Assembly: GCF_965200585.1 (NCBI RefSeq)
Contig: NZ_OZ241361.1
Length of the DNA: 64,000 nt
Reading direction: 5' to 3' (one strand)
Source of the DNA: Bacterioplanoides sp.
GTDB lineage: Bacteria > Pseudomonadota > Gammaproteobacteria > Pseudomonadales > Oceanobacteraceae
Below the pieces are notes generated by a model that did no database searches, was not told the origin of the DNA, and saw nothing but the letters and a program-made list of their open reading frames with translations. Both the position numbers and the translations under genes were made by a program. Shown here in pieces: positions 6,081 through 19,156 of the stretch. Numbering within the stretch: position 1 is the stretch's first letter; every line of letters starts with the position of its first letter.

Positions 6081-6243
6081 AGAACGCCCCTTTGTTAAAC
6101 CGGTTTTGAATTTAGAGGCAAAGTGGATCAGATCAACTGCCATATATCAAGCCATGACCCGGAAAGAGTGTCTGGGATCCCGGAACACAAAATATGGTCT
6201 AGACTAAGCAATGATGATAGTAAAAAGGTATGAGTTACGAATA

Positions 6244-7245
6244 ATGATTAATCTTTTATTAATTATTTTGTCATTTTTATTTCTGACAGCTCATGCTGAA
6301 GAATCCATTGAATTACAAACTTTGAAGCAGCAATACCAGCGCCCGGAGTTTATTCCGTTTCCGGCTGACAACCCTTACAGTTCCGATAAGGCTCAGCTGG
6401 GCAAGATGTTGTTCTTTGATCAGCGTTTGAGCCGTCACTTCAATATGACCTGCGCCACCTGCCACAATCCATCACTGGGTTGGGAAGACGGTGTGCCTAC
6501 GGCGGTGGGCGATATCAATGAAGCCTTACCAAGACACTCACCAACCTTGCTGAATCTGGCCTGGGGCAAGGAGTTTTTCTGGGATGGTCGCGCAGCGACA
6601 TTAGAGGAACAGGTTCGTGGGCCGGTTGAAGCGGCTGTAGAAATGAATATGTCACTTGAGGAAGTGGTCGAGCGACTGAATGATATTGAAGGTTATCGCC
6701 TGCAATTTCAGAAGGTTTTTGGCGAAGCCATTAACGAAACGAATATTCTCAAAGCCATCGCCACCTATGAGCGTACTCTGGTATCTGGCACTGCAGCCTT
6801 TGACCGCTGGGTGGATGGTGATGAACAGGCTATTTCAGAACAGGCAAAAGCAGGTTTTCAACTGTTTAACGGCAAGGCGGGCTGCAGCCGCTGCCATACT
6901 GGCTGGAATTTCACCGACAATCAGTTTCATGATATTGGCTTAAATTCGGATGATTTAGGGCGTGCTTTAATCACTGGCAATCCACAGCATAATTACGCTT
7001 TTAAAACACCGGGACTGCGTAATATCGGCCAGCGTATGCCGTATATGCACAATGGTGAATCCGCCAATATTGACGCGGTTCTGGCGCATTACATTTCGGG
7101 AGGAATTCAACGTCCGAGCTTATCACCACTAATGCAGCCTGTTCGTTTAAATCCGCAGGAACTGGCTCAGTTAAAAGCCTTTATGATCACACTCGATGGT
7201 GAAGATAAGCCTGTCAGCCTGCCGATTCTGCCCATTTCAAGGTAA
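6244..7245 (+). CDS. di-haem cytochrome c peroxidase (CCP/MauG family)
   Basis: Two CxxCH motifs (CATCHNP, CSRCHTG), PYMHNG, and a signal peptide (MINLLLIILSFLFLTAHA). The ORF is open from 6211. Confidence 0.85.
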   Translation: MINLLLIILSFLFLTAHAEESIELQTLKQQYQRPEFIPFPADNPYSSDKAQLGKMLFFDQRLSRHFNMTCATCHNPSLGWEDGVPTAVGDINEALPRHSPTLLNLAWGKEFFWDGRAATLEEQVRGPVEAAVEMNMSLEEVVERLNDIEGYRLQFQKVFGEAINETNILKAIATYERTLVSGTAAFDRWVDGDEQAISEQAKAGFQLFNGKAGCSRCHTGWNFTDNQFHDIGLNSDDLGRALITGNPQHNYAFKTPGLRNIGQRMPYMHNGESANIDAVLAHYISGGIQRPSLSPLMQPVRLNPQELAQLKAFMITLDGEDKPVSLPILPISR

Positions 7246-7252
7246 CTAAAAG

Positions 7253-8854
7253 ATGCGAATAAAACACAAATTATGGTTAGGCTTTGGCTTGATTCTGGTG
7301 CTTTTCAGCGCATTAAGCTTGTACCTGAATAGCCAGCTGGGGGTGATTGGTAATACCGTTTCCAGAGTGATGGAGCATCCGTTAAATGCGGTATACAACA
7401 GCCGTACAGCGTCTGAAATCTTTCGCGATAGCCATGATCTGGTATTGACTGAACTGGCTGCGATTCAATTCTCAGATGGGCGTCAGAGTGTAGTGCAGCT
7501 GAACAACCTGAAAAGTGATTTTCTTAAACATATTGATCAGGCCGAACAAGCGGCCATGGCCATGGGCAGTTCCTTTGATTTTGCTCATACCCGTCAGCTG
7601 GCACAGCGTTGGTATGAACTGAATGTGCAGCGTATTGGTGATGTTAATCAGGCCAAAATTCCAGATGAACGGCTATTAACACAATTAGATCGGGAACTGC
7701 AGGCGACGTTAAGCCAGCTGGTGCAACAGAACATTGCCCTGGTGCAAACAGAACGACAAAAAACCAGTGATGAAATCAGCAGTACTCAGTCAACCGCAGT
7801 GACCGTGATGTTGTTGGTGTTAGCTATTGGTATCGTGATGGCCTTTTTATTATCACTGAATATCCAGAAGCCATTGTTGCAGTTGCAACGTTCGGTGGAA
7901 AACCTGGCTAAAGGTGAAGCGGATTTAACTCAGCGTTTAAACCTGACCACCCGTGATGAAACCGGTGATCTGGCCAGAGAGCTGGATTTGTTTATTGGTC
8001 GTATTCATGAACTGCTGATCAATACCAAGGCATCGGTAACGACATCCTGTGAAGCCTTGCTGGGGTTAACTGAAATTGCATCAGGTACCCGTGAAGGAGC
8101 CATTGAGCAGAAACAAGCCATGGTCATGACCGAGTATTGTGTTAAAGATATGACCAGTGCTGTGCAGCAAATGAATGACTTCTCGCATCAGGCAAAGGAT
8201 CAGGCGGATACTGTTAATCATGATACTCAGCAGAGCATTCAGATGTTGCAGCAATCGTCCGATGGCATTGTGCAGCTGTCCGGTGAAGTTTCTGCCGCGC
8301 GTGAAGAGATTCAGTTGTTGGCAGAAGACAGCAACAGCATCTCTTCATTAATTAATGTAATTGATGAAATTGCCGAACAAACCAACCTGTTGGCCCTGAA
8401 TGCTGCGATTGAAGCGGCACGGGCGGGTGAGGCTGGGCGTGGCTTTGCGGTAGTAGCCGATGAGGTGCGGGCGCTGGCCAGTAAAACCCGGGAATCGACC
8501 GAGAATATTCGTAAAACCATTGGTGGCATTCAGGATAAGGTCTCCAGTGCCCGCAACGTAATGGAGCATGGTCGTGACCTGGCGTTACGCTGTGTTGAAC
8601 AAAGTGGTGAAGTGAATGAATCGCTGAACGCCGTAGGGACAAAGGTTCAGGAAATTTCAGATATTAACGGCACGATCGCCACCCAGAGTCATGAGCAAAC
8701 CAATACTATGCAGAATATTGGTGATCGTATGGAGCTGGTGAATACAGTGGCTTCGGAAACAGAACAGCGCACCGCTGATCTGCAGGAAGTGCGACAGCAG
8801 CTGGCGGAAGCGTTAACTTCGGTGGAAGGTTTTATGAGTGAATTCCGGTTGTAA
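7253..8854 (+). CDS. methyl-accepting chemotaxis protein
   Basis: Two TM segments, a HAMP region, and the conserved signalling hairpin ([35 protein letters not shown]). Confidence 0.9.
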
Positions 8855-8944: not shown

Positions 8945-10195
8945 ATGATGGCGCAATTCTCTGGATGGACACTGGGTCTGATGGCGGTCATCGTCGTACT
9001 GACCCTGTACTTCCATATTTTCCGGTATTCCAACCGTACGGCTGAAATCGCCCCGAATATCCTCACCAGTATTGGCATCTTTGGTACGTTCTTAGGTGTG
9101 GCGCTGGGCTTATGGCATTTTGACACCGCTGATATTCAGGGCAGTGTGCCCAAGCTGATGGATGGCTTAAAAACCGCATTCTGGTCGTCGATTGTGGGTT
9201 TGTTAGGAGCGCTGACATTAAAGATTCGTGCCGCCATGTCCCAGGTTGGTCGTCGTGAAGTGACACAAACCCGGGTGGCGACCATTGATGATCTCGACAG
9301 TTCGCTGAAACACCTGGCTGACCAGTTTGATGCTGAACGCGATGAAGCACTGCCCCGCACCTTTACCCGACATCATTTACAAACCATTGATCGTCTCGAT
9401 CAGGTGATTGCCTCGCTGGATGGTTATCAGGAGCGGATGGCCGAAGCTAATGCCAAGGCACTGGTACAAGCGATTGAAACCGTCATGCGCGATTTTAATA
9501 CCCGCATTAACGAACAGTACGGTGATAACTTCAAACGTCTTAATGAAAGCGTTGGCAAGATGTTGGACTGGCAGAATAACTACCGCGATCAGCTACAGCA
9601 GCTGATTACGGAGCAGGAGCGCACGTCTGGTTCGATGAAAGAAGCCAGCCATGCGTTTGAATACATGGTGAAACACGCCAATGCCTTTAATGGCATTTCT
9701 GAATCCTTACAGGATCTGTTGAATGGCCTGGAGGCACAGCGCCAGAACCTGCAATCACAATTGGGTTCACTGGCGGATCTGGTGAATCATGCTGCTGATG
9801 GCTTACCGAAGCTGGAAGAGCGGGTAGTAGCACTGACGCAGGGCATGTCAGAAGCCGTGCAGTCTCAGCAGCGCTGGGCCGTTGAGCAATTAGGAGCAAT
9901 GCAGCGTGGTGTTGAGCAACAGCTAGAACAGCAACTGCAAGCCAGTAACGAACGCCTGCAAGAACAACAGCATCATAGTCTGCAGCAATTGCAGCGTCTG
10001 GGTGAGCGGGTTGAGCGTCAGGTTGTGGCGTTGGATGAAAGCATGGAAGAAGAGCTGAATAAAGCGCTGAAGTCCTTTGGTATGCAGCTGACGGCATTAT
10101 CTGAGAAGTTTGTAAGTGACTACACACCACTAACCAAACGCTTACAGCAGTTGGTTAAAGTCGCCGAATCTGTCACCGAAGCCGAGCATGACTGA
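8945..10195 (+). CDS. MotA/ExbB/TolQ-like proton-channel protein with long C-terminal coiled-coil tail (ZorA-like architecture)
   Basis: Three N-terminal TM helices with the channel signature APNILTSIGIFGTFLGVALGL and GLKTAFWSSIVGLLGAL. These are followed by about 310 aa of Q/L/E-rich heptad-like sequence. The ORF is open from a TTG at 8930. Confidence 0.65.
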   Translation: MMAQFSGWTLGLMAVIVVLTLYFHIFRYSNRTAEIAPNILTSIGIFGTFLGVALGLWHFDTADIQGSVPKLMDGLKTAFWSSIVGLLGALTLKIRAAMSQVGRREVTQTRVATIDDLDSSLKHLADQFDAERDEALPRTFTRHHLQTIDRLDQVIASLDGYQERMAEANAKALVQAIETVMRDFNTRINEQYGDNFKRLNESVGKMLDWQNNYRDQLQQLITEQERTSGSMKEASHAFEYMVKHANAFNGISESLQDLLNGLEAQRQNLQSQLGSLADLVNHAADGLPKLEERVVALTQGMSEAVQSQQRWAVEQLGAMQRGVEQQLEQQLQASNERLQEQQHHSLQQLQRLGERVERQVVALDESMEEELNKALKSFGMQLTALSEKFVSDYTPLTKRLQQLVKVAESVTEAEHD

Positions 10196-10205
10196 GTAGC
10201 TGCCC

Positions 10206-10913
10206 ATGAATGAAAATGAACTGGAGCAGCTGAAAGAACAGGAAGGCCATTGGGTTGCGGTATCCGACTTAATGGCGGGTCTGATGATGGTGTTTATGCT
10301 GATTTCTATTGTGTTTATGGTGAACGTTGAAACCGAGCGCAATAAAATCCGCGACATTGCTATTCTCTACGATCACCTGCGTACTCAGTTATACGACGAT
10401 CTGAATAACGAATTTGCGGCGGATATGCAGCGTTGGGGTGCGGAGCTGGATAAAGACCTGGCGTTTCGGTTTAACAATACTGATGTGTTATTTGATCAGG
10501 GCAAGGCCGAGTTAAAACCAGAGTTTGCCGCTATTCTGGCCGACTTTTTCCCTCGTTATGTGAATATTATTACTCAGCCGAAATATCGCGACGATATCCT
10601 TGAAGTACGGATTGAAGGACATACCTCCAGTGCCTGGTCCGGAGCGGCGAACGCCGACGATGCTTATATCCGTAATATGGATTTATCTCAGGAGCGTACC
10701 CGTACTACGCTGGGTTATGTGCTTGGCCTGAATAATGTGGCTGCCAATAAAGATTGGTTAAAAACGCATTTAACTGCCAATGGTTTATCTTCCGCTAAAG
10801 TCGTACGTACCGATAACGGCGACGAAAATGAAGAAAGCTCTCGTCGTGTGGAATTCCGTGTAAGAACGGATGCGGATAGTCGGATTGCCACGATCTTAGA
10901 GAAAGTGCTATGA
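10206..10913 (+). CDS. MotB-like / OmpA-family peptidoglycan-binding protein (ZorB-like architecture)
   Basis: TM segment with conserved Asp (HWVAVSDLMAGLMMVFML). OmpA-like C-terminus (FDQGKAELKPEF, RIEGHTSS, SQERTRTTLGY, RRVEFRV). Starts 10 nt after the upstream gene. Confidence 0.75.
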   Translation: MNENELEQLKEQEGHWVAVSDLMAGLMMVFMLISIVFMVNVETERNKIRDIAILYDHLRTQLYDDLNNEFAADMQRWGAELDKDLAFRFNNTDVLFDQGKAELKPEFAAILADFFPRYVNIITQPKYRDDILEVRIEGHTSSAWSGAANADDAYIRNMDLSQERTRTTLGYVLGLNNVAANKDWLKTHLTANGLSSAKVVRTDNGDENEESSRRVEFRVRTDADSRIATILEKVL

Positions 10914-11374
10914 AGTTGCCGGACTTTCTCGACGATGCCGACCTGAATACTCTGCGCCAGAAAATGGGGGCTAAACAGCTGGGAGAATTTGAGCTGTTTG
11001 ATCCACAAAAGCAGCTGACGTACTCCGAACGAGAAGCACTGGAAGAAGGTCAGTTTAAAATTAATGCTGCGGAATTACGTGCCTTAAAAGATAAAACACT
11101 GGCGTATAAAAACTCTCGTGTGTGGCTGACTCACGAACAAAAATACCATCTGGCTTACTGTCAGGAAGTACAGCAACTGCGTCACCGCCAGGTTGATGTG
11201 TTAACGGGCACGGAAGCTAATAGCGATGATGACTTATGTCTGGAGTGTCTGGCGCTACTAAAATACCAGGGTGTTGATAGCCGTCGTGTACGACGTAATG
11301 AGTTTACCGAGCATGTTCAGGAGGAGTTTGATTTGGTGGACTTTAAGAAGGTTTATCCGTTTTATCCGGTGTAG
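10910..11374 (+). CDS. hypothetical 154-aa protein with H-x3-C ... C-x2-C arrangement
   Basis: ATGA start/stop overlap with the MotB-like gene. Contains YHLAYC and CLEC. No family recognised. Confidence 0.6.
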   Translation: MKLPDFLDDADLNTLRQKMGAKQLGEFELFDPQKQLTYSEREALEEGQFKINAAELRALKDKTLAYKNSRVWLTHEQKYHLAYCQEVQQLRHRQVDVLTGTEANSDDDLCLECLALLKYQGVDSRRVRRNEFTEHVQEEFDLVDFKKVYPFYPV

Positions 11375-11438
11375 ATACATTTACAAAAAACATTCATATC
11401 AGTAATAATTGAAGCTCAAGCAGTAAAAGGATTTTTTC

Positions 11439-11858
11439 GTGGTTTCAATCTTTGTTCTTCTGGCGTTCTGCCTTCCGATTTATCTGGCTCTGGCCATTCT
11501 TAAAGTTCAGGAGCGAAAAGCTCAACAACGTCTTAATCCGTTAACTAAGGGTATTTTCAGGCCTGCGGGTTATTCTTTATATACCCAAATAGATGAACTC
11601 CGCTTGGATGTGATGGCTAAAGTGGCGGTGATTGTATTTCTGCCTCCGACTTATTTTTCGGCAATGTCATCAAGTGATGTATTGGTTGATACGCCGACAC
11701 CGATCTGAGCTACCCGTACCTGGTTATTGTGCTTGTTAATGAGCGCTGCTATTTGGTACCTGATTAAGTATGTTAAGGAAGCAGCCCGGGCAGGGCCTGG
11801 AAGACGTCGTGTATCAATGACCTTTTATGATTGTTGTGGGGAGGGCGCTGCAGTTTAA
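11439..11858 (+). pseudogene. small multi-TM ORF interrupted by an in-frame TGA at 11706-11708 (possible pseudogene)
   Basis: GTG-initiated 89-codon ORF. After the TGA the same frame stays open for 49 more codons and encodes another hydrophobic helix (TWLLCLLMSAAIWYLI) before the TAA at 11856. Confidence 0.3.
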
Positions 11859-12043: not shown

Positions 12044-12961
12044 ATGCATATTAAAGCAAAATATATTCGAAGCTTAACTAAAATTCGCTTGTTGGCATCT
12101 GAGTACGATCGGATTCGACTGGTTTATTCTGTTGATAATCGCGCAAACGATGCTTTAGCAAAAATCGGTTTCTCAGATTTGGGAATTGGTGAAGAAGCTA
12201 TTCCACAAGTTGTAGGAAGGAAAACAAGAATCAATAGTGAGGGAGAAATACTGGTCTTAAAAGATAAGCCTAAGGTTAATAAAACGAGATCTATTTATCG
12301 AACATGGAATGATTGGCACGGAAATCCTCATTCTGGCTATCAGGATATTTCGTACAAAGCATACCCTACGATCAAATGTCCTCCGAGTCTTCATGAGTTT
12401 TGTTTGATCAATATTGGTGATGATTTATGTTTTGCTAGTAAGGAGATTGTTCTTTCCAACGAAAGTGAGAAAAGTATTCTTGAAATTGCCAATATTATTC
12501 TTGAATGCTTCGGAGCTTTTAACATTATCGACTCTACAAAGAATCAGCTTGTAACAAATAAGATGAAGGTTCTTGAATGGGAGTTGTTGCCTGTTGGTGA
12601 GAATCCTTGGAAGAGACAAGGATTAACATTTTCTCGTGGATCTAAAGCTCTAAATATTGAAAGAGCTCAAGCAGTTGAACACCGAATGAATACAGTTAAA
12701 AAATTTGGACCGTCAATGATAGCTAGAGGCCGAAATGGCTTTAACGGATATTTTGTTTATGGTTTCGAATCTATTGGAATTTTCATTCTTGAAAGCGTTT
12801 ATACCAACAATGCAACTTATGTATTTAAAGATGATTGGGAAATGTTGTCTAAGTTAACGAAAAGTCAGCTCATAAATGGAGAGGCTAACTTTGAGAGGAT
12901 TATTCATAACTCTAGTTGGGATATGAGGATGAAAGCTCTTTTTCACTCAGCTAAAAAGTAA
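12044..12961 (+). CDS. hypothetical protein (305 aa) in an AT-rich islet
   Basis: Long uninterrupted ORF in markedly AT-rich DNA, followed by a strong terminator. No motif recognised. Confidence 0.7.
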   Translation: MHIKAKYIRSLTKIRLLASEYDRIRLVYSVDNRANDALAKIGFSDLGIGEEAIPQVVGRKTRINSEGEILVLKDKPKVNKTRSIYRTWNDWHGNPHSGYQDISYKAYPTIKCPPSLHEFCLINIGDDLCFASKEIVLSNESEKSILEIANIILECFGAFNIIDSTKNQLVTNKMKVLEWELLPVGENPWKRQGLTFSRGSKALNIERAQAVEHRMNTVKKFGPSMIARGRNGFNGYFVYGFESIGIFILESVYTNNATYVFKDDWEMLSKLTKSQLINGEANFERIIHNSSWDMRMKALFHSAKK

Positions 12962-13005: not shown

Positions 13006-13082
13006 TGGTAGCTATGACTGGACTTGAACCAGTGACCCCAGCATTATGAATGCTGTGCTCTAACCAGCTGAGCTACATAGCC
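13006..13082 (-). tRNA. metT: elongator tRNA-Met (anticodon CAT), 77 nt with encoded CCA
   Basis: Reverse complement is GGCTATGTAGCTCAGCTGGTTAGAGCACAGCATTCATAATGCTGGGGTCACTGGTTCAAGTCCAGTCATAGCTACCA. It folds as a cloverleaf and is very similar to E. coli elongator tRNA-Met as I recall it. Confidence 0.93.
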
Positions 13083-13270: not shown

Positions 13271-13303
13271 TGTTTGTATCTTGGGGGCCATCACTTGGGG
13301 CCT

Positions 13304-13342
13304 CAGCATTATGAATGCTGTGCTCTAAAGAGATGAGTAGCC
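13304..13342 (-). pseudogene. fragment of a tRNA-Met gene (5' half through the anticodon arm)
   Basis: 25 nt identical to the functional tRNA (13304-13328, TTAGAGCACAGCATTCATAATGCTG on the tRNA strand), plus a GGCTA acceptor remnant. The T-arm and 3' half are absent. Confidence 0.55.
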
Positions 13343-13351
13343 TTCGATGCG

Positions 13352-13723
13352 CTACACCGAGAAAGACTCACCGCAGCCGCACAGGTCTTTGGCATTCGGG
13401 TTGTTGAACTTGATAGTAGAGTTCAGGCCTTCTTTGCTGAAGTCGATCTCAGTACCTTTCACAAAGTTAGCCGCATCGCCTGCGACATATAACGTCACAT
13501 CATCGGCGGCCTGAATGGCAATATCGCCATCCTGGGCTGCTTCGACAAACTCAATATCGTATTTAAAGCCCGAGCAGCCACTCTTCTTCACACCCAGGCG
13601 GATGCCCGCCATCTCGGTGTTTTTCTCCAGTTGTTTGCGCACATGTTTGATGGCCGCATCAGTCATGCTGACTTGCGGCGCTTCTGCGCTAACACTGGCT
13701 GGATCGAAGGTTTCAATCGTCAT
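13352..13723 (-). CDS. sufA: Fe-S cluster assembly scaffold/carrier, SufA/IscA family
   Basis: C-terminal CGCGESF motif and a GCSGF motif; position in the suf operon. Confidence 0.85.
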   Translation of the reverse strand: MTIETFDPASVSAEAPQVSMTDAAIKHVRKQLEKNTEMAGIRLGVKKSGCSGFKYDIEFVEAAQDGDIAIQAADDVTLYVAGDAANFVKGTEIDFSKEGLNSTIKFNNPNAKDLCGCGESFSV

Positions 13724-13743
13724 CAGTATCTCCTCCTTTGATC

Positions 13744-14964
13744 TTACAATAAGAACATTTTGGCTTTTTCCAAGCCTTTAAACAGGGTTTCGACATCTTC
13801 TAAAGTGTTATAGAAGGTGTACGACGCACGCACCGTGCCGGGAATACAGAACTGATCCATAATCGGCATCGCGCAGTGATGGCCAGTACGTACCGCAATG
13901 CCTTGCTGATCGAGCAGGGTGCCAACATCCGCCGGGTGTGCGCCTTCCAGTAGAAAGCTGAACACACTGGCTTTGTTTGCCGCCGTACCAACGGCCTGAA
14001 TACCCCCTAATTGCTCGGCCAGTTCTACCGAACGGACTAACAAGGTATCTTCATGAGCCGCCAGTGCCACACGATCTAAACCATTGAGGTATTCAATCGC
14101 CGCTGCCAAACCAATGGCTCCGGCGATGTTCGGCGTACCGGCTTCAAACTTGTATGGCAAGCTGTTGTAGGTGGTTTTGCCGAAACTGACGTGTTCGATC
14201 ATTTCACCGCCACCCTGGTACGGCGGCATGGCGTTTAGCAATGCTTCTTTGCCGTATAGCACACCAATGCCAGTTGGGCCAAACAGTTTATGACCTGAGA
14301 AGGCATAAAAGTCGGCGTCTAGTGCTTGTACGTCGATGTCCCAGTGGGCCACCGCCTGAGCGCCGTCAAGCAGCACCTTGGCACCCACGGCATGGGCCTG
14401 CTCGATAATTTCTGCCACTGGGTTAATGGTGCCCAATGCATTAGATACATGAACAACAGACACAAATTTAACGCGTTCGTTCAGTAATTCGGCGAATGCG
14501 GCCATATCCAGTTCGCCCGCTGCCGATACCGGAATCGGGATTAGCTCGGCACCGGTTTGCTCGCACAACATCTGCCACGGCACGATATTGGAGTGATGCT
14601 CCATAGCCGTAACCAGAATCTGATCACCTGCTTTGAGGTTCTGGCGCGCCCAGGTATTGGCAACGATATTGATGGATTCCGTGGTGCCGCGAGTCCAGAC
14701 AATTTCTTCCGCTTTGGCGGCATTTAAAAATGTTTGTACGGTTTTACGCGCATCTTCAAAACGCTGGGTCGCACGATCACTTAAGGTGTGTGCACCACGG
14801 TGAACATTGGAGTTATCCGTGCGGTAATAATCGCTGATGGCATCAATCACGGCTTGTGGCTTGTGAGTGGTGGCACCATTGTCGAGATACACCAGTGGTT
14901 TGCCGTTTACTTCCTGATGAAGTGCCGGAAAATCGTTGCGAATCTGGTTAATCAGGTCGGTCAT
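13744..14964 (-). CDS. sufS: cysteine desulfurase SufS
   Basis: PLP-lysine motif SGHKLFGPTGIGVLYG and active-site RTGHHCAMP, 406 aa. Confidence 0.92.
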   Translation of the reverse strand: MTDLINQIRNDFPALHQEVNGKPLVYLDNGATTHKPQAVIDAISDYYRTDNSNVHRGAHTLSDRATQRFEDARKTVQTFLNAAKAEEIVWTRGTTESINIVANTWARQNLKAGDQILVTAMEHHSNIVPWQMLCEQTGAELIPIPVSAAGELDMAAFAELLNERVKFVSVVHVSNALGTINPVAEIIEQAHAVGAKVLLDGAQAVAHWDIDVQALDADFYAFSGHKLFGPTGIGVLYGKEALLNAMPPYQGGGEMIEHVSFGKTTYNSLPYKFEAGTPNIAGAIGLAAAIEYLNGLDRVALAAHEDTLLVRSVELAEQLGGIQAVGTAANKASVFSFLLEGAHPADVGTLLDQQGIAVRTGHHCAMPIMDQFCIPGTVRASYTFYNTLEDVETLFKGLEKAKMFLL

Positions 14965-15010
14965 GCTTGTTACCTGTCTCTTTTTCTACTGCGCGTATCA
15001 AACGAGCGCA

Positions 15011-16327
15011 TTAAGCAATATGGCGGGTCAGTGATTGCTCACGACCAAAACGATGCGCCAGGATCGGACGTAAATAGTTGCCAATGGCTTCGTCCGGCAA
15101 TGCTTCTAATAATTCGTTAATAAAACCAAAGCTCAGCATCACTTCGGCTTCGCGCTTGGAAATACCACGGCTTTGCATATAAAACAGCGCTTTTTCTTCC
15201 AACTGAGCGACGGTGGCACCGTGGGCGCACTGGACGTCGTCGGCGTAAATTTCCAGCTCAGGCTTGGTATTAATTTCCGCTTCGTTGGTGAGCAGCAGGT
15301 TTTTGTTGCTCATTTCCGCCAGTGTTTTTTGCGCATCCGGGTGAATATGAATACGGCCATTAAATACCGCTTTGGCGTTGTCGTTCATAATGCCGCGGAA
15401 CACTTCGTTAGTTGTGCAACGTGGCACCTTGTGTTCAATGCAGGTGTGGAAATCCACCAGTTGTTTATTTTGAGGAACATAGACGCCGCTCATTTCCACA
15501 TGAGAGCCACCACCGTTGTGGTTAACCACCACATCGTTACGGGTCAGCTTGCTGCCCAGACCTAAATGGAATGAGTGATATTGGGCATCGCGATCCAGAT
15601 CAACATGGGTTGAGCCAATATGCAGAGCATCTTCCTGAGACATATTCAGGCGATAGTGTTGCAGCTTAGCGTTAGCGCCAATAGCCACTTCCGTCACGGC
15701 GTTGGTGAAGTTGTTTTGCTCAGCATCGGATGAGGCATAATGCTCAACTAAGGTGGCATTTGCGCCTTGCTCAACCACAACTAATAAGCGGGCATTCACG
15801 CTGAAGTTATCGGCTTGCTTGGTGGTTAACCAGCTCACCTGAATGGCTTGCTCTTGCTGAACGTTTTTACCAATGTGCAGTAACACACCGTCGGTTAATT
15901 GCGCGTTATTCAGCTCGTTAAATAAATGACGATTCTGACCAGCCACAATGCGGTCGAGTTTTTCTGCAATTAACGTTTTTTGCTCGTCGTTGGCCTGGCT
16001 GAATAAGGTCAGATTTTCCAGCGCTTCGTTGCTGGACAATTCTTTCGACAGTTGACCATTTACAAACACTAAGCGATGGCTGCCCAAGGCTGGGATTGTC
16101 GCCAGGCCATCTAAACCTGCAGCACTATGAGAGCTGGTAACACCGCCGTAGACGCCTTCGGTTAAATGACGCAGCGAGGTGTATTTCCAGGCTTCATGTT
16201 TGCGGTTTGGAATCACTGCTTGTTCAAACGCAGCACGACCGGCTGCATTTAATTCTGCAAAGGCGCTGCCGTTTTGGTTAATGGTGTCGGTCAGTGCGAG
16301 CTGGTGAGCTTGAAATTGTTCAGACAT
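15011..16327 (-). CDS. sufD: Fe-S cluster assembly protein SufD
   Basis: Position between sufC and sufS, and a SufB/D-type beta-helix C-terminal region. Confidence 0.85.
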   Translation of the reverse strand: MSEQFQAHQLALTDTINQNGSAFAELNAAGRAAFEQAVIPNRKHEAWKYTSLRHLTEGVYGGVTSSHSAAGLDGLATIPALGSHRLVFVNGQLSKELSSNEALENLTLFSQANDEQKTLIAEKLDRIVAGQNRHLFNELNNAQLTDGVLLHIGKNVQQEQAIQVSWLTTKQADNFSVNARLLVVVEQGANATLVEHYASSDAEQNNFTNAVTEVAIGANAKLQHYRLNMSQEDALHIGSTHVDLDRDAQYHSFHLGLGSKLTRNDVVVNHNGGGSHVEMSGVYVPQNKQLVDFHTCIEHKVPRCTTNEVFRGIMNDNAKAVFNGRIHIHPDAQKTLAEMSNKNLLLTNEAEINTKPELEIYADDVQCAHGATVAQLEEKALFYMQSRGISKREAEVMLSFGFINELLEALPDEAIGNYLRPILAHRFGREQSLTRHIA

Positions 16328-16337
16328 TTTCTGCTCC

Positions 16338-17087
16338 TTATTGGCCAGCTTCTTCTAACCAGCCGTAGCCTTTTTCTTCCAGCTCCAGCGCTAATTCTTT
16401 ACCGCCAGACTTCACGATTTTACCGCCGGCCAGAACGTGAACGTAGTCCGGCACAATGTAGTCCAGCAGGCGCTGATAGTGAGTCACAACAATAAAGCTA
16501 CGGTTTTCATCGCGCATGGAGTTAACGCCTTCGGCAACCACTTGCAGGGCATCAATATCTAAGCCAGAGTCTGTTTCATCCAGAATGCACAGTTGCGGCT
16601 CTAACAGCATCATCTGCATTAATTCGTTACGCTTTTTCTCACCACCGGAGAAACCTTCGCTCACGCCACGCTTCAGGAAGCTTTGGTCCAGGTTGACGGC
16701 TTTGCATTTTTCACGTGCCAGTTTTAAAAACTGAACGCTGTCTAATGGCTCTTTGCCCTGGTGTTCGCGCACGGCATCAACCGACGCTTTTAAAAATTCT
16801 AAGTTGGAAACACCCGGAATTTCGACCGGGTATTGGAACGCCAGGAATAAACCTTCACGTGCACGTTCTTCCGGATCCATATCCAGAATATCGGTGCCGT
16901 TTAACTCTGCACTGCCGCCGGTTACTTCATAACCTTCACGGCCTGCTAATACATTACCCAGGGTACTTTTACCCGCACCGTTCGGGCCCATGATGGCATG
17001 AACTTCACCGGGTTTAATGTCCAGGTTCAGACCTTTAAGGATGTCTTTTTCTTCAACTTTGGCTTGCAGGTTTTTGATGCTAATCAT
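16338..17087 (-). CDS. sufC: Fe-S cluster assembly ATPase SufC
   Basis: Walker A GPNGAGKST, signature FSGGEKKR, Walker B LCILDETDSGLD. ATG at 17087 is preferred; the ORF is open to a TTG at 17099. Confidence 0.92.
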   Translation of the reverse strand: MISIKNLQAKVEEKDILKGLNLDIKPGEVHAIMGPNGAGKSTLGNVLAGREGYEVTGGSAELNGTDILDMDPEERAREGLFLAFQYPVEIPGVSNLEFLKASVDAVREHQGKEPLDSVQFLKLAREKCKAVNLDQSFLKRGVSEGFSGGEKKRNELMQMMLLEPQLCILDETDSGLDIDALQVVAEGVNSMRDENRSFIVVTHYQRLLDYIVPDYVHVLAGGKIVKSGGKELALELEEKGYGWLEEAGQ

Positions 17088-17142
17088 GGCGTTTTCCAAA
17101 ATTTTTAATTCGTTTCTATAAGCGTTTTTTCGGCTTATTAGC

Positions 17143-17237
17143 AGGAGCTTGGTTGTTGTCTTCGGCGGGCCTTGGCGGCATGGATGCCGCGAACGAGCCT
17201 ATTGATGGCGTTCCGCAGAAGATAACAGCCAAGCTCC
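17143..17237. repeat. long imperfect hairpin repeat (about 95 nt) with central gcggc-ATGGAT-gccgc
   Basis: Outer arms aggagcttggttgttgtcttc and gaagataacagccaagctcc are near-complementary. The core hairpin lies at 17175-17190. Confidence 0.7.
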
Positions 17238-17315
17238 GTGTTGTTTCTTTTTAAAACGTAGAATTTTTTGCTAAATCGCTAAGCAATGGCATTGTTCCTT
17301 GAGACACGCTGTAAA

Positions 17316-17353
17316 TACATCCCTGTACGCTCTCTGATTTCATCCCTGAAATC
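17316..17353. repeat. two short hairpins with ATCCCT loops (AGGGAT on the suf mRNA strand)
   Basis: tac-ATCCCT-gta (17316-17327) and gatttc-ATCCCT-gaaatc (17336-17353). Confidence 0.55.
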
Positions 17354-17361
17354 AAAGGTCT

Positions 17362-17394
17362 CAAAAAACAACGCCATTACTCAGCGATGGCGTT
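17362..17394 (-). terminator. terminator-like hairpin plus T-run immediately after the sufB stop (intra-operon attenuator?)
   Basis: The minus strand reads aacgccat-cgctgagta-atggcgtt followed by gttttttgag. Confidence 0.5.
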
Positions 17395-17404
17395 TTCTAA
17401 TAAA

Positions 17405-18913
17405 TCAGCCCACAGAGCCTTCCAGCGACACTTCCAGTAATTTGCCGGCTTCTACGGCAAATTCCATCGGCAGCTCTTTAAATACCTCTTTACAGAAACC
17501 ATTCACAATCATAGAAACGGCTTTCTCGGTATCAATACCACGCTGCTGACACAGGAATAGCTGATCGTCACTCACGGTTGATGTGGTTGCTTCGTGCTCA
17601 ACCACCGCCGACGGGTGTTTGCTTTCGATATACGGGAAGGTGTGAGCGCCACATTTGTCACCAATTAACAGCGAATCACACTGGGTGAAGTTACGTGCGC
17701 CATCGGCATTCGGGCCCATACGAACCAAGCCACGATACGCGTTCTGGCTTTTGCCTGCCGAGATACCTTTGGAGATGATTGTTGAGCTGGTGTTTTTGCC
17801 CAGATGGATCATCTTGGTGCCGGTATCGGCTTGCTGATAGTTGTTCGTTAACGCAACTGAGTAAAACTCACCAACAGCGTTGTCGCCTTTTAAAATACAG
17901 CTTGGGTATTTCCAGGTTACCGCAGAACCGGTTTCGACCTGAGTCCAGGAAACCTTAGCGTTGGTATGAGCGACCGCACGCTTGGTTACAAAGTTGTAGA
18001 TACCACCTTTACCTTCGGCATCACCCGGATACCAGTTCTGTACGGTGGAGTATTTAATCTCGGCGTCGTCCAGTGCCACCAGTTCAACCACGGCAGCGTG
18101 TAACTGGTTTTCGTCACGCATGGGTGCGGTACAGCCTTCCAGATAAGAAACGTGGGAACCTTCGTCGGCAACAATTAGTGTACGCTCAAACTGACCGGTT
18201 TTGGCTTCGTTAATACGGAAGTAAGTCGACAGTTCCATTGGGCAACGCACGCCTTTTGGGATGTAGACAAACGAACCATCGGAGAACACGGCGGAGTTCA
18301 GCGCGGAGTAGAAGTTATCACGCTGTGGTACAACAGTGCCCAGGTACTTCTTCACCAGTTCCGGATGCTCGTGCACGGCTTCCGACAGTGGCATAAAGAT
18401 CACGCCTGCTTCAGCCAGGGTTTCACGGAAGGTGGTGGCAACAGAGACGGAGTCGAATACCGCATCAACGGCAACACCGGCCAGCGCCATTTGTTCGTGC
18501 AGTGGGATGCCCAGTTTCTCGTACGTTCTCAGCAGCTCTGGATCAACTTCGTCCAGCGACTTGGGCTTATCTTCCATGCTCTTTGGCGCAGAGTAATAAG
18601 ACAGCGCCTGGAAATTGGGCTTCTCGTAATTAACGTGGGCCCAATCCGGCTCTTCCATTTCCTGCCAGGCACGGAAGGCTTTTAAACGCCACTCGGTCAG
18701 CCACTCAGGTTCGCCTTTTTTGGCGGAAATCCAGCGTACAACGTCTTCATTCAGGCCCGGAGCAATGGTCTCCGATTCGACATCCGTAACAAAACCCGCT
18801 TCGTATTCGCGGTCAATACGGTTACCGATCTCGGCATCTTTACCGGTTAACTCAACGGTAGCTGATGCCGCTTCAACGGGTTCAAGCGTGGTTGTTTCTG
18901 CACTGCTGCTCAT
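17405..18913 (-). CDS. sufB: Fe-S cluster assembly protein SufB
   Basis: Strongly SufB-like throughout. The ATG at 18913 has a GGGAGA SD sequence; the ORF is open to 18988. Confidence 0.92.
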
Positions 18914-19156
18914 AGCTGTGGTTCTCCCAGTGACAGGTGATCTGTCGTTGCACGGTGTTGCAAACGTTACTGCCAGAGCATCCTGCATTGGCTTATTTAA
19001 TCCTGAGCATTTTACTCGGGTTTTGCATCTCTGCCAAGAATCTATACCAGTTTGGTATGCTTTCCTGAGCGGGCGCGAATTTTACCAAAATGAGTGAAAT
19101 ATGACCAATTGAGACAGGTTCTTATTTGGAAGGTTCTAATATGTGCTCATGAGGCA

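What the first reader, a model, noticed from the sequence alone, without database searches (positions are those of the whole stretch)
8945..11374. Zorya-like ZorA/ZorB pair with a novel coupled third gene and no ZorC/D/E effector
Seen in sequence:
- ORF 8945-10195 is a three-TM MotA/ExbB-type channel (APNILTSIGIFGTFLGVALGL; GLKTAFWSSIVGLLGAL). It is followed by about 310 aa of uninterrupted Q/L/E-rich heptad-like sequence (for example QLQQLITEQ and QQLEQQLQASNERLQEQQHHSLQQLQRL) with no other domain.
- Ten nt downstream is a MotB-type protein with the conserved TM aspartate (HWVAVSD21LMAGLMMVFML) and an OmpA-like peptidoglycan anchor.
- A 154-aa ORF overlaps this by ATGA and carries YHLAYC ... 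CLEC (an H-x3-C ... C-x2-C arrangement).

Established: a proton channel with a long coiled-coil tail plus a MotB/OmpA partner is the architecture of ZorA/ZorB in Zorya anti-phage systems. Those normally continue with ZorC and ZorD, or with the HNH protein ZorE.

Inference: none of these effectors is present. The locus may therefore be a minimal or new Zorya-type system whose effector is the small His/Cys protein and/or the downstream genes. Alternatively it is an unrelated envelope-energised machine. The operon has host-like base composition, so it is not obviously recently acquired.
Basis: partly seen in the sequence, partly recalled or inferred. Interest (0 to 1): 0.75.

Follow-up and report, generated by a model that had tools for sequence, protein, structure and literature searches.

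The report
Zorya II variant lacking its nuclease
This three-gene operon is a type II Zorya anti-phage motor (ZorA/ZorB) whose third protein keeps only the zinc-binding front domain of the usual ZorE effector and has no DNA-cutting domain; the form is conserved in a group of marine bacteria, so the known "sense the breach, then nick DNA" mechanism cannot be how it works.

Summary
All three ORFs and every quoted motif are present as described. ORF1 and ORF2 are type II ZorA and ZorB: they give full-length PADLOC matches (1e-109, 1e-94) and match the solved S. kujiense ZorA5B2 motor 8VVI (about 1e-51 each). The third gene is not new. It is the N-terminal DUF8245 (PF26739) domain of ZorE, including the Zn-site histidine (H80, equivalent to E. 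coli H90, which is essential for defence). It ends exactly where canonical ZorE continues into its HNH nuclease. No ZorE-type HNH is encoded anywhere in the 64-kb window, nor within about 10 kb in 42 related loci. The short form is not decay: it sits in a 97-leaf HNH-less clade, is always coupled to ZorAB in the trio loci, is under purifying selection, and has its own conserved residues. The trio occupies the same chromosomal slot across several genera (Bacterioplanoides, Bacterioplanes, Thalassolituus, Oceanobacter). It was not found among plasmid or viral sequences, whereas canonical Zorya II is plasmid-borne. One relative has an empty slot. This is a new variant of a known system. Its output is unknown, and defence versus a domesticated envelope sensor remains open.

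The parts
8945..10195 (+). zorA (type II lineage), 416 aa: N-terminal MotA/ExbB-like membrane core (about residues 1-100) plus a 316-aa helical cytoplasmic tail with a conserved tip (about 351-410)
   Evidence: PADLOC ZorA2 PDLC00637 1e-109, residues 8-409 against profile 16-418 of 420. PDB 8VVI_F (S. kujiense type II ZorA) 1.8e-51 across residues 15-407. 38% identity end to end with the ZorA of a canonical HNH-bearing system, L037. Against L037 the tip is 48% identical, the core 49% and residues 301-350 only 8%.
10206..10913 (+). zorB (type II lineage), 235 aa: single TM helix with Asp21 (codon 10266-10268) and a C-terminal OmpA-like peptidoglycan-binding domain
   Evidence: PADLOC ZorB2 PDLC00641 1e-94, full length. 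Pfam OmpA 1.2e-6, above the cut-off. 8VVI_A 2.8e-52, with the SD(L/M)M Asp aligned. 54% identity to L037 ZorB and 49.5% to the annotated E. coli plasmid zorB2.
10910..11374 (+). Stand-alone DUF8245 gene (the ZorE N-terminal domain with no HNH), 154 aa, translationally coupled to zorB by an ATGA overlap
   Evidence: All homologues carry PF26739/DUF8245. PADLOC ZorE2 matches only the N-terminal part. The protein ends at YPFYPV, where long ZorEs continue into CxxC..HHxNG..NLxxLCxxCH. It has no hit to an HMM of the HNH module. dN/dS is about 0.06-0.24. AF2 model pLDDT 88.6.
11147..11248 (+). Codons of the invariant Zn-site residues of the DUF8245 protein: H80 (11147-11149), C84 (11159-11161), C110 (11237-11239), C113 (11246-11248)
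   Evidence: Invariant in alignments A1, A2 and A3 and in both the short and long clades. H80 aligns with E. coli ZorE H90, whose H90A mutant abolishes defence (bioRxiv 10.64898/2026.05.12.724681).

Best explanation
The locus is a chromosomally resident derivative of type II Zorya that lacks the nuclease. What is shown: ZorA and ZorB belong to the type II lineage whose S. kujiense member is a solved ZorA5B2 motor, with the ion-coupling Asp, the OmpA-like peptidoglycan anchor, a full-length tail and a conserved tail tip. The third protein is the DUF8245 zinc domain of ZorE with no HNH. The trio is a conserved unit under purifying selection in a distinct clade. What is inferred: as in characterised Zorya systems, envelope perturbation lets ZorB bind peptidoglycan, ion flow turns ZorA and its tail, and the tail tip engages the DUF8245 protein. 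On this reading DUF8245 is the module of ZorE that couples to ZorAB. Because no nuclease is attached, the output must be something other than HNH nicking in cis. It is most likely either (a) DUF8245 acting as an adaptor that brings in or licenses a nuclease or another system encoded elsewhere, or (b) a non-cleaving interaction of its own through the clade-specific basic patch (D123, R126, R128). I consider an anti-phage role somewhat more likely than not. I am about 95% sure of the identity and architecture, and about 50% sure of the defence function.
For: Identity: (ZorA2/ZorB2 profiles, 8VVI, the canonical comparator L037, the annotated E. coli zorB2). DUF8245-only: PF26739; the ZorE domain map from the literature; the alignment stops before the HNH; HNH-positive proteins are all at least 237 aa; HNH-negative ones are at most 230 aa apart from three exceptions of 246, 279 and 1487 aa; the best six-frame hit in the window has E = 1.1; the HNH HMM hits only the three canonical control loci and none of 42 short-type loci. 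Not decay: the trio is intact in every trio locus; a pure clade of 97 HNH-less leaves; dN far below a saturated dS; clade-specific conserved residues F30, D31, N68, Y119, D123, R128, Y152, P153 in addition to the shared core. Coupling to the tail: the tip is as conserved as the TM core between short-type and canonical systems; in type I the tail tip and rotation are required for effector recruitment. DUF8245 matters for function: (H90A abolishes defence; E99A selectively abolishes synergy with Druantia III). Defence association: (PDC-S11, AbiD, PDC-S31 and a BrxH/DrmD-like helicase lie a few kb downstream in L001 and L010).
Against: There is no phenotype and no effector activity that can be named. 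The DUF8245 fold has no solved or viral structural relative. The residues predicted to face DNA in E. coli ZorE are not kept: E99 aligns with Q89, and Y109 lies in a segment the short clade lacks. The locus behaves unlike typical defence cargo: it holds the same slot across several genera, is as conserved as housekeeping neighbours, mostly has ordinary chromosomal neighbours, and was not found among plasmid or viral sequences. That DUF8245 binds the ZorA tail is an inference and has not been tested.
Confidence: 0.55

Rival explanations
1. The trio is a domesticated Zorya. An ancestral type II system lost its nuclease and was retained as a housekeeping, ion-driven envelope sensor (for envelope stress, or linked to motility), with the DUF8245 protein as a cytoplasmic signalling partner. 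It is no longer an immune system.
For: The trio holds the same slot (Pyr_redox gene, M48, YbjQ, YbjQ, trio) in Bacterioplanoides, Bacterioplanes, Thalassolituus, Oceanobacter and related MAGs. ZorA and ZorB are 75-95% identical across genera, similar to YbjQ (89-92%) and the Pyr_redox gene (87-88%), with dN/dS of 0.02-0.10. It was not found among plasmid or viral sequences, whereas canonical zorB2 sits on mobilizable and conjugative plasmids. Neighbours are mostly metabolic or regulatory. In at least eight distinct loci the trio abuts the PilZ-FlgN-FlgM-FlgA-CheV edge of a flagellar cluster. The toxic nickase is gone.
Against: There is no positive evidence for any housekeeping function. The slot is empty in Bermanella sp. 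WJH001, so the trio is dispensable. Defence genes lie next to it in two lineages. Conserved synteny among relatives is expected from vertical descent whatever the function. The trio is not co-oriented with the flagellar genes, and the window has no match to the five flagellar-cluster proteins tested within 64 kb.
Confidence: 0.3
2. The effector is supplied by the window's own downstream genes (the 89-aa ORF at 11439-11708 and/or the low-GC 305-aa ORF at 12044-12961).
For: They are adjacent and on the same strand. No terminator-like site was found directly after ORF3. The 305-aa protein belongs to an uncharacterised family with a patchy distribution in marine gammaproteobacteria, as accessory genes often have.
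Against: Neither ORF has a homologue in any other trio locus. They give no Pfam, PADLOC, NCBIfam or PHROG hit. GC content falls to 0.39 there, and the segment abuts the 3' end of tRNA-Met, which points to a separate insertion. A promoter-like site lies between ORF3 and the 89-aa ORF.
Confidence: 0.05
3. The third gene is a decaying remnant of ZorE (a truncated pseudogene), and the system is dead or dying.
For: It is shorter than canonical ZorE and lacks the catalytic domain.
Against: Lengths of about 150-230 aa are conserved across a 97-leaf clade. The Zn ligands are invariant and there are clade-specific conserved residues. dN is far below dS. The stop always falls at the domain boundary. No HNH remnant is found downstream in any frame. 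ZorA and ZorB are intact everywhere.
Confidence: 0.03
4. The pair is an ordinary TolQR, ExbBD or flagellar MotAB-type stator, and the resemblance to Zorya is superficial.
For: A weak Pfam MotA_ExbB match (E = 0.01, below the cut-off) and weak MotB-family NCBIfam matches. The trio lies near flagellar genes in some relatives.
Against: The ZorA2 and ZorB2 profiles score about 100 orders of magnitude better. The full-length match to 8VVI includes the tail. TolQ, ExbB and MotA have no 316-aa tail.
Confidence: 0.02

Closest known systems
Type II Zorya (ZorA2-ZorB2-ZorE), e.g. E. coli ATCC 8739 and plasmid systems, and S. kujiense ZorA5B2 (PDB 8VVI)
   Same: ZorA and ZorB are homologous over their full length: 38% and 54% identity to a canonical system with ZorA of nearly the same size (417 vs 416 aa), and about 1e-51 to 8VVI. 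Gene order and tight coupling are the same. The third gene shares ZorE's N-terminal DUF8245 domain, including the essential Zn-site histidine.
   Different: The central HNH nickase domain, and any C-terminal nuclease-like extension, are missing. So is the 'RFxRYVxxTRxDGxF' segment that carries E. coli Y109. The trio is chromosomal, syntenic and vertically inherited rather than carried on plasmids or islands. It also has its own conserved residues (F30, D31, N68, Y119, D123, R128, and YP at the C-terminus).
Type I Zorya (ZorA-ZorB-ZorC-ZorD)
   Same: The same sensor principle: a 5:2 peptidoglycan-anchored ion-driven motor with a cytoplasmic tail whose tip recruits soluble partners.
   Different: There is no ZorC or ZorD. 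ZorA1 profiles match only weakly (1e-14 or worse). The tail is much shorter (316 aa, against about 500 aa in type I).
Flagellar stator MotAB, and TolQR / ExbBD
   Same: A distantly related membrane core, with the conserved Asp in the B-subunit TM helix and an OmpA-like anchor.
   Different: Those families have no long coiled tail and no DUF8245 partner. The profile matches to them are below their curated cut-offs.

Membership tests
Zorya type II | ZorA: a MotA/ExbB-like membrane core followed by a long helical cytoplasmic tail | tested here: met
   PADLOC ZorA2 PDLC00637 1e-109, full length. 8VVI_F 1.8e-51 across residues 15-407. Tail of 316 aa that is rich in Q, L and E.
Zorya type II | ZorB: a TM helix with a conserved Asp plus an OmpA-like peptidoglycan-binding domain | tested here: met
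   PADLOC ZorB2 1e-94. Pfam OmpA above the cut-off. D21 aligns with the Asp of 8VVI ZorB.
Zorya type II | ZorE carries an HNH endonuclease (nickase) domain | tested here: not met
   The protein ends before the HNH module. It gives no hit to an HNH HMM built from canonical ZorEs, and nothing in the six-frame translation of the window matches either. Across all fetched loci, only the three canonical control loci hit.
Zorya type II | ZorE N-terminal DUF8245 domain with its Zn site (E. coli H90) | tested here: met
   PF26739 on all homologues. H80, C84, C110 and C113 are invariant. H80 aligns with H90.
Zorya type II | NCBIfam equivalog cut-offs for ZorA2, ZorB2 and ZorE | tested here: not met
   145.8 bits against a cut-off of 700, 240.6 against 400, and 18.9 against 600. 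The models are built on enterobacterial-type sequences, so this reflects divergence and is not exclusion.
Zorya type II | ZorA5B2 stoichiometry and recruitment of the third protein by the ZorA tail | not testable with these tools
   No multimer prediction is available. The inference rests only on homology to 8VVI and on conservation of the tail tip.
Zorya (any type) | Protection against phage infection | not testable with these tools
   This needs an experiment. The only indirect evidence is defence genes nearby in two lineages, set against housekeeping contexts elsewhere.
Zorya type I / type III | ZorC plus ZorD (type I), or ZorF (DUF3348) plus ZorG (DUF2894) (type III), adjacent to ZorAB | tested here: not met
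   The flanking ORFs gave no such PADLOC or Pfam hits. No conserved fourth gene was found in 34 loci.
MotAB / TolQR / ExbBD | Match to the MotA_ExbB and MotB family models at curated thresholds, with no long tail | tested here: not met
   MotA_ExbB scores 16 bits against a cut-off of 22.9. The MotB-family NCBIfam models score 18-24 bits against cut-offs of 259-300. A 316-aa tail is present.

The most novel reading that the evidence does not exclude
A whole lineage of Zorya has dispensed with its nuclease, and the DUF8245 domain alone is the output. That would identify DUF8245 as the module that docks on the ZorA tail and receives its signal. It would also mean one of two things: either ZorAB immunity can act without a dedicated nuclease (through an adaptor to effectors encoded elsewhere, or through non-cleaving interference), or a phage-defence motor has been domesticated into a vertically inherited housekeeping envelope sensor.
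Probability: 0.4. Interest if true: 0.75.

Novelty: new variant of a known kind. Interest (0 to 1): 0.58.

Why it matters
How the ZorA tail recognises and activates its soluble effectors is an open question. For type II, membrane recruitment of ZorE on infection has been shown, but the interacting domain has not been identified. A natural, conserved system in which only the DUF8245 domain accompanies ZorAB is a minimal case. It predicts that DUF8245 is the coupling module and gives a small 154-aa partner for binding and structural work. It also shows that automated "Zorya II" calls can include systems that cannot nick DNA; the 2026 preprint filtered such variants out without studying them. If the trio still defends, it reveals a nuclease-independent or trans-effector mode. 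If it does not, it is an example of an immune sensor retained for a cellular role.

Tried and rejected
1. Frameshifted or split ZorE: I read the DNA downstream of ORF3 and listed all ORFs of at least 20 aa. I also scanned the six-frame translations of the window and of all loci with an HNH HMM. There is no remnant.

2. Fold assignment of DUF8245: there were two AF2 models (pLDDT 72.6 and 88.6). Foldseek against the PDB (twice) and BFVD, and a profile search of PDB sequences, gave nothing meaningful.

3. A conserved fourth gene: clustering the ORFs downstream of the trio across 34 loci found only a convergent LEA_2 lipoprotein gene and lineage-specific genes.

4. The 305-aa and 89-aa ORFs as partners: rejected.

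5. Pfam detection of the HNH in long ZorEs was nearly blind, and my first regex under-called it. Both were replaced by a purpose-built HMM.

6. dN/dS: synonymous sites are saturated, and several NG86 estimates are undefined. Only the qualitative conclusion (dN far below dS) is used.

7. Presence/absence: the T. hydrocarboniclasticus flank protein was not on record, so only two further genomes could be examined. The genome scan used a narrow peptide pattern and missed Oceanobacter, so its 29 loci are a lower bound.

8. The NJ tree is crude, and its sampling is biased: the top 150 hits come from a profile built from short forms.
Full report
OBSERVATION. ORF1 and ORF2 are separated by a 10-nt gap, and ORF2 and ORF3 overlap by ATGA. 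All quoted peptide strings are present, the ZorB Asp is residue 21, and the 154-aa protein has H80-x3-C84 and C110-x2-C113. The tail of ORF1 is 316 aa, with Q 12%, L 12%, E 10% and three prolines. GC content of the operon (0.49) matches its surroundings, whereas 11-13 kb falls to 0.39.

WHAT ORF1 AND ORF2 ARE. PADLOC profiles place them in type II Zorya over their full length: ZorA2 PDLC00637 at 1e-109 (residues 8-409 against profile 16-418 of 420) and ZorB2 PDLC00641 at 1e-94. Pfam MotA_ExbB is only a sub-threshold match (E = 0.01), and OmpA just passes its cut-off. The NCBIfam Zorya equivalogs match but fall well below their cut-offs, which reflects divergence from the enterobacterial type. 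The nearest solved structure is 8VVI, at 1.8e-51 for ZorA across residues 15-407 including the tail, and 2.8e-52 for ZorB with the TM Asp aligned. 8VVI is the S. kujiense type II ZorA5B2 motor (PMC11890865). A canonical metagenomic system, L037 (ZorA 417 aa, ZorB 237 aa, ZorE 288 aa), aligns end to end at 38% and 54% identity. An annotated E. coli IncY plasmid zorB2 is 49.5% identical to the window's ZorB. TolQR, ExbBD and MotAB are therefore excluded.

WHAT ORF3 IS. It is not a new protein. PADLOC ZorE2 profiles match it at 9.6e-16, but only across profile positions 3-106 of 282. About 50 homologues of 154-160 aa all carry PF26739, which is DUF8245. A 2026 preprint describes E. coli ZorE as an N-terminal DUF8245 domain with a predicted Zn site at H90, a central HNHc domain, and an optional C-terminal nuclease-like domain. 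It reports that H90A abolishes defence (bioRxiv 10.64898/2026.05.12.724681). Aligning the annotated E. coli ZorE puts H90 (RFHIAWC) on window H80 (KYHLAYC). In an alignment with ten long ZorEs, the window protein and the other short forms stop at the 'YPxYP' end of DUF8245. The long forms continue into CxxC...HHxNGxK...NLxxLCxxCHA...HxH.

An HMM of that HNH module separates the 197 collected proteins cleanly. All 55 HNH-positive proteins are at least 237 aa. HNH-negative proteins are at most 230 aa, apart from three exceptions of 246, 279 and 1487 aa. The same HMM finds nothing in the six-frame translation of the whole 64-kb window (best E = 1.1). Across all 46 fetched loci it hits only the three canonical controls (L037, L038, L044) and none of the 42 short-type loci, each covering up to 10 kb either side.

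IS THE SHORT FORM REAL BIOLOGY? An exhaustive profile search of 1.84 billion representative proteins gave 394 hits. The best 55 or so (E from 1e-66 to 1e-25) are almost all 150-230 aa. Forms of 270-380 aa appear from about 1e-23 onwards and match only over their first 180 or so residues. A neighbour-joining tree of the domain puts the window inside a pure clade of 97 HNH-less leaves. This tree is crude and its sampling is biased towards short forms. Every short-type locus with enough flank carries ZorA (about 410-440 aa), ZorB (about 235 aa) and DUF8245 (152-205 aa) as a tight unit. No fourth same-strand gene recurs.

dN is far below a saturated dS for all three genes: ZorA about 0.03-0.10, ZorB about 0.02-0.08 and DUF8245 about 0.06-0.24. 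The short and long clades share a core (M1, L3, F6, L15, R16, M19, L44, D61, T63, K67, R70, H80, C84, C110, C113, L114, F140, Y149). The short clade has extra conserved positions of its own (F30, D31, N68, Y119, D123, R128, Y152, P153). It lacks the long-clade 'IRD' motif and the 'RFxRYV..T..DG.F' segment that holds E. coli Y109. This is specialisation and not decay.

EVOLUTIONARY SETTING. The nearest named relatives are Bacterioplanoides at 79-80% identity for ORF3 and 92-95% for ZorA and ZorB. In Bacterioplanoides, Bacterioplanes, Thalassolituus, Oceanobacter and related MAGs the trio sits in the same slot: a Pyr_redox (TrxB-like) gene, M48 peptidase, YbjQ, YbjQ, then the trio on the opposite strand. 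Lineage-specific insertions occur, such as the cytochrome c peroxidase and MCP genes in the window and in L006. Divergence of ZorA and ZorB tracks that of the housekeeping neighbours. The right flank is variable. It holds LEA_2 and then a PilZ-FlgN-FlgM-FlgA-CheV flagellar edge in at least eight distinct loci. It holds metabolic genes in Thalassolituus LLYu03 and a defence island (PDC-S11, AbiD, PDC-S31 and a BrxH/DrmD-like helicase) in L001 and L010. In the window it holds a low-GC insertion next to tRNA-Met.

The short form was not found among viral contigs or plasmids (one weak partial hit on a 2.4-Mb Burkholderia replicon). Canonical zorB2 is on mobilizable and conjugative plasmids. Bermanella sp. 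WJH001 has the YbjQ-YbjQ-M48 flank but no trio within 10 kb either side. The trio is therefore not an invariant fixture, although it could lie elsewhere in that genome.

MECHANISM. Established for Zorya: ZorAB is a peptidoglycan-anchored, ion-driven 5:2 motor. In type I, rotation and the tail tip are required to recruit ZorC and ZorD (PMC11946911). In type II, ZorE is a nickase that ZorAB brings to the membrane on infection (PMC11890865). In the window, ZorB keeps the Asp and the OmpA-like motifs. The ZorA tail tip (residues 351-410) is 48% identical to that of a nuclease-bearing system, as conserved as the TM core (49%), while residues 301-350 are only 8% identical. My inference is that the tip docks the DUF8245 domain, which is what the short and long systems have in common.

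The output cannot be HNH nicking in cis. I favour an adaptor or licensing role towards effectors encoded elsewhere. The preprint's finding that DUF8245 residue E99 is selectively needed for synergy with Druantia III shows that this domain can take part in functional coupling. The alternative is a non-cleaving interaction through the basic D123/R126/R128 patch. DUF8245 has no recognisable structural relative, even with a confident model (pLDDT 88.6), so its fold gives no further clue. The main rival is domestication into a non-immune envelope or motility-linked sensor. That reading is supported by the syntenic vertical inheritance, the absence from the mobile-element collections searched and the loss of the toxic nuclease. 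I rate defence at about 0.5, domestication at about 0.3 and other explanations as small.

NOVELTY. Searches of the held literature for Zorya, ZorE, DUF8245 and 'type IV' found no description of a nuclease-less ZorE lineage. [quoted passage not shown] That wording suggests such variants appear in PADLOC calls and were set aside. This is a new variant of a known kind.

LIMITS. There is no experiment and no multimer modelling. dS is saturated. The genome scan used a narrow peptide pattern and gives a lower bound. Only two extra genomes were checked for an empty slot. Phylogenetic sampling is biased towards short forms.

Noticed in passing
window 12044-12961 (+): A low-GC (about 0.39) 305-aa ORF between the Zorya trio and tRNA-Met. 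It belongs to an uncharacterised family of about 300-aa proteins with no Pfam domain, scattered in Photobacterium, Pseudoalteromonas, Vibrio, Colwellia and Shewanella. It gives no PADLOC, PHROG or NCBIfam hit and is absent from all related trio loci. It is probably a separately acquired accessory gene.
   Followed up: partly
window 13006-13082 (-) and 13301-13337: A tRNA-Met (CAT) gene, with an 89%-identical 37-nt partial copy of its anticodon-arm region 265 nt away. The low-GC segment abuts the tRNA's 3' end. This looks like the scar of integration events, but no integrase is present.
   Followed up: partly
L011, L013, L014/L041, L020, L021, L023, L024, L025 (downstream of the trio): In Thalassolituus-type genomes the trio lies at the edge of a flagellar cluster: a PilZN/PilZ (YcgR/FlgZ-like) gene, FlgN, FlgM, FlgA and CheV. 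In L020 only 111 bp separate it from the PilZ gene. The window has no match to these five proteins within 64 kb. This could be ancestral synteny only, or a hint of a motility link for this stator homologue.
   Followed up: partly
L001 10839-16474 and L010 11660-15870: A defence island 1-3 kb downstream of the trio in two MAG lineages: PDC-S11 (6e-147), AbiD (3e-60), PDC-S31 (7e-31) and a BrxH/DrmD-like SNF2 helicase (4e-101).
   Followed up: partly
L035 2-4117: A 230-aa DUF8245 protein (P0080) that is not next to ZorAB. It follows a 1119-aa ORF with no PADLOC hit and precedes mnmE. This may be a different partner for the domain.
   Followed up: partly
P0125, P0127 (long ZorE, 369-382 aa): The C-terminal extension of some long ZorEs matches the C-terminal 100 or so residues of ZorC profiles (PDLC00613, 7e-13 and 2e-10). 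This suggests a module shared between type I ZorC and extended type II ZorE.
   Followed up: no
P0192 (1487 aa): A large protein with 11 separate matches to positions 16-61 of the DUF8245 profile, that is, a repeated sub-motif of the domain in an unrelated architecture.
   Followed up: no
window 11439-11708 (+): An 89-aa hydrophobic ORF (GTG start) just after the trio, preceded by a promoter-like site at 11380-11409. It has no homologue in related loci and no family hit. It may not be a real gene.
   Followed up: partly
window 6211-8854 (+): A di-haem cytochrome c peroxidase (1.7e-56) and a methyl-accepting chemotaxis protein (4.6e-39) lie between the YbjQ genes and zorA. This insertion is shared with the Bacterioplanoides MAG L006 but not with most other genera.
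   Followed up: partly
window 13352-18988 (-): Judging by eye from the translations (an IscA/SufA-like ...CGCGESFSV C-terminus and a 406-aa aminotransferase-like ORF), this looks like a suf Fe-S assembly operon immediately after the tRNA. It was not tested with any profile.
   Followed up: no
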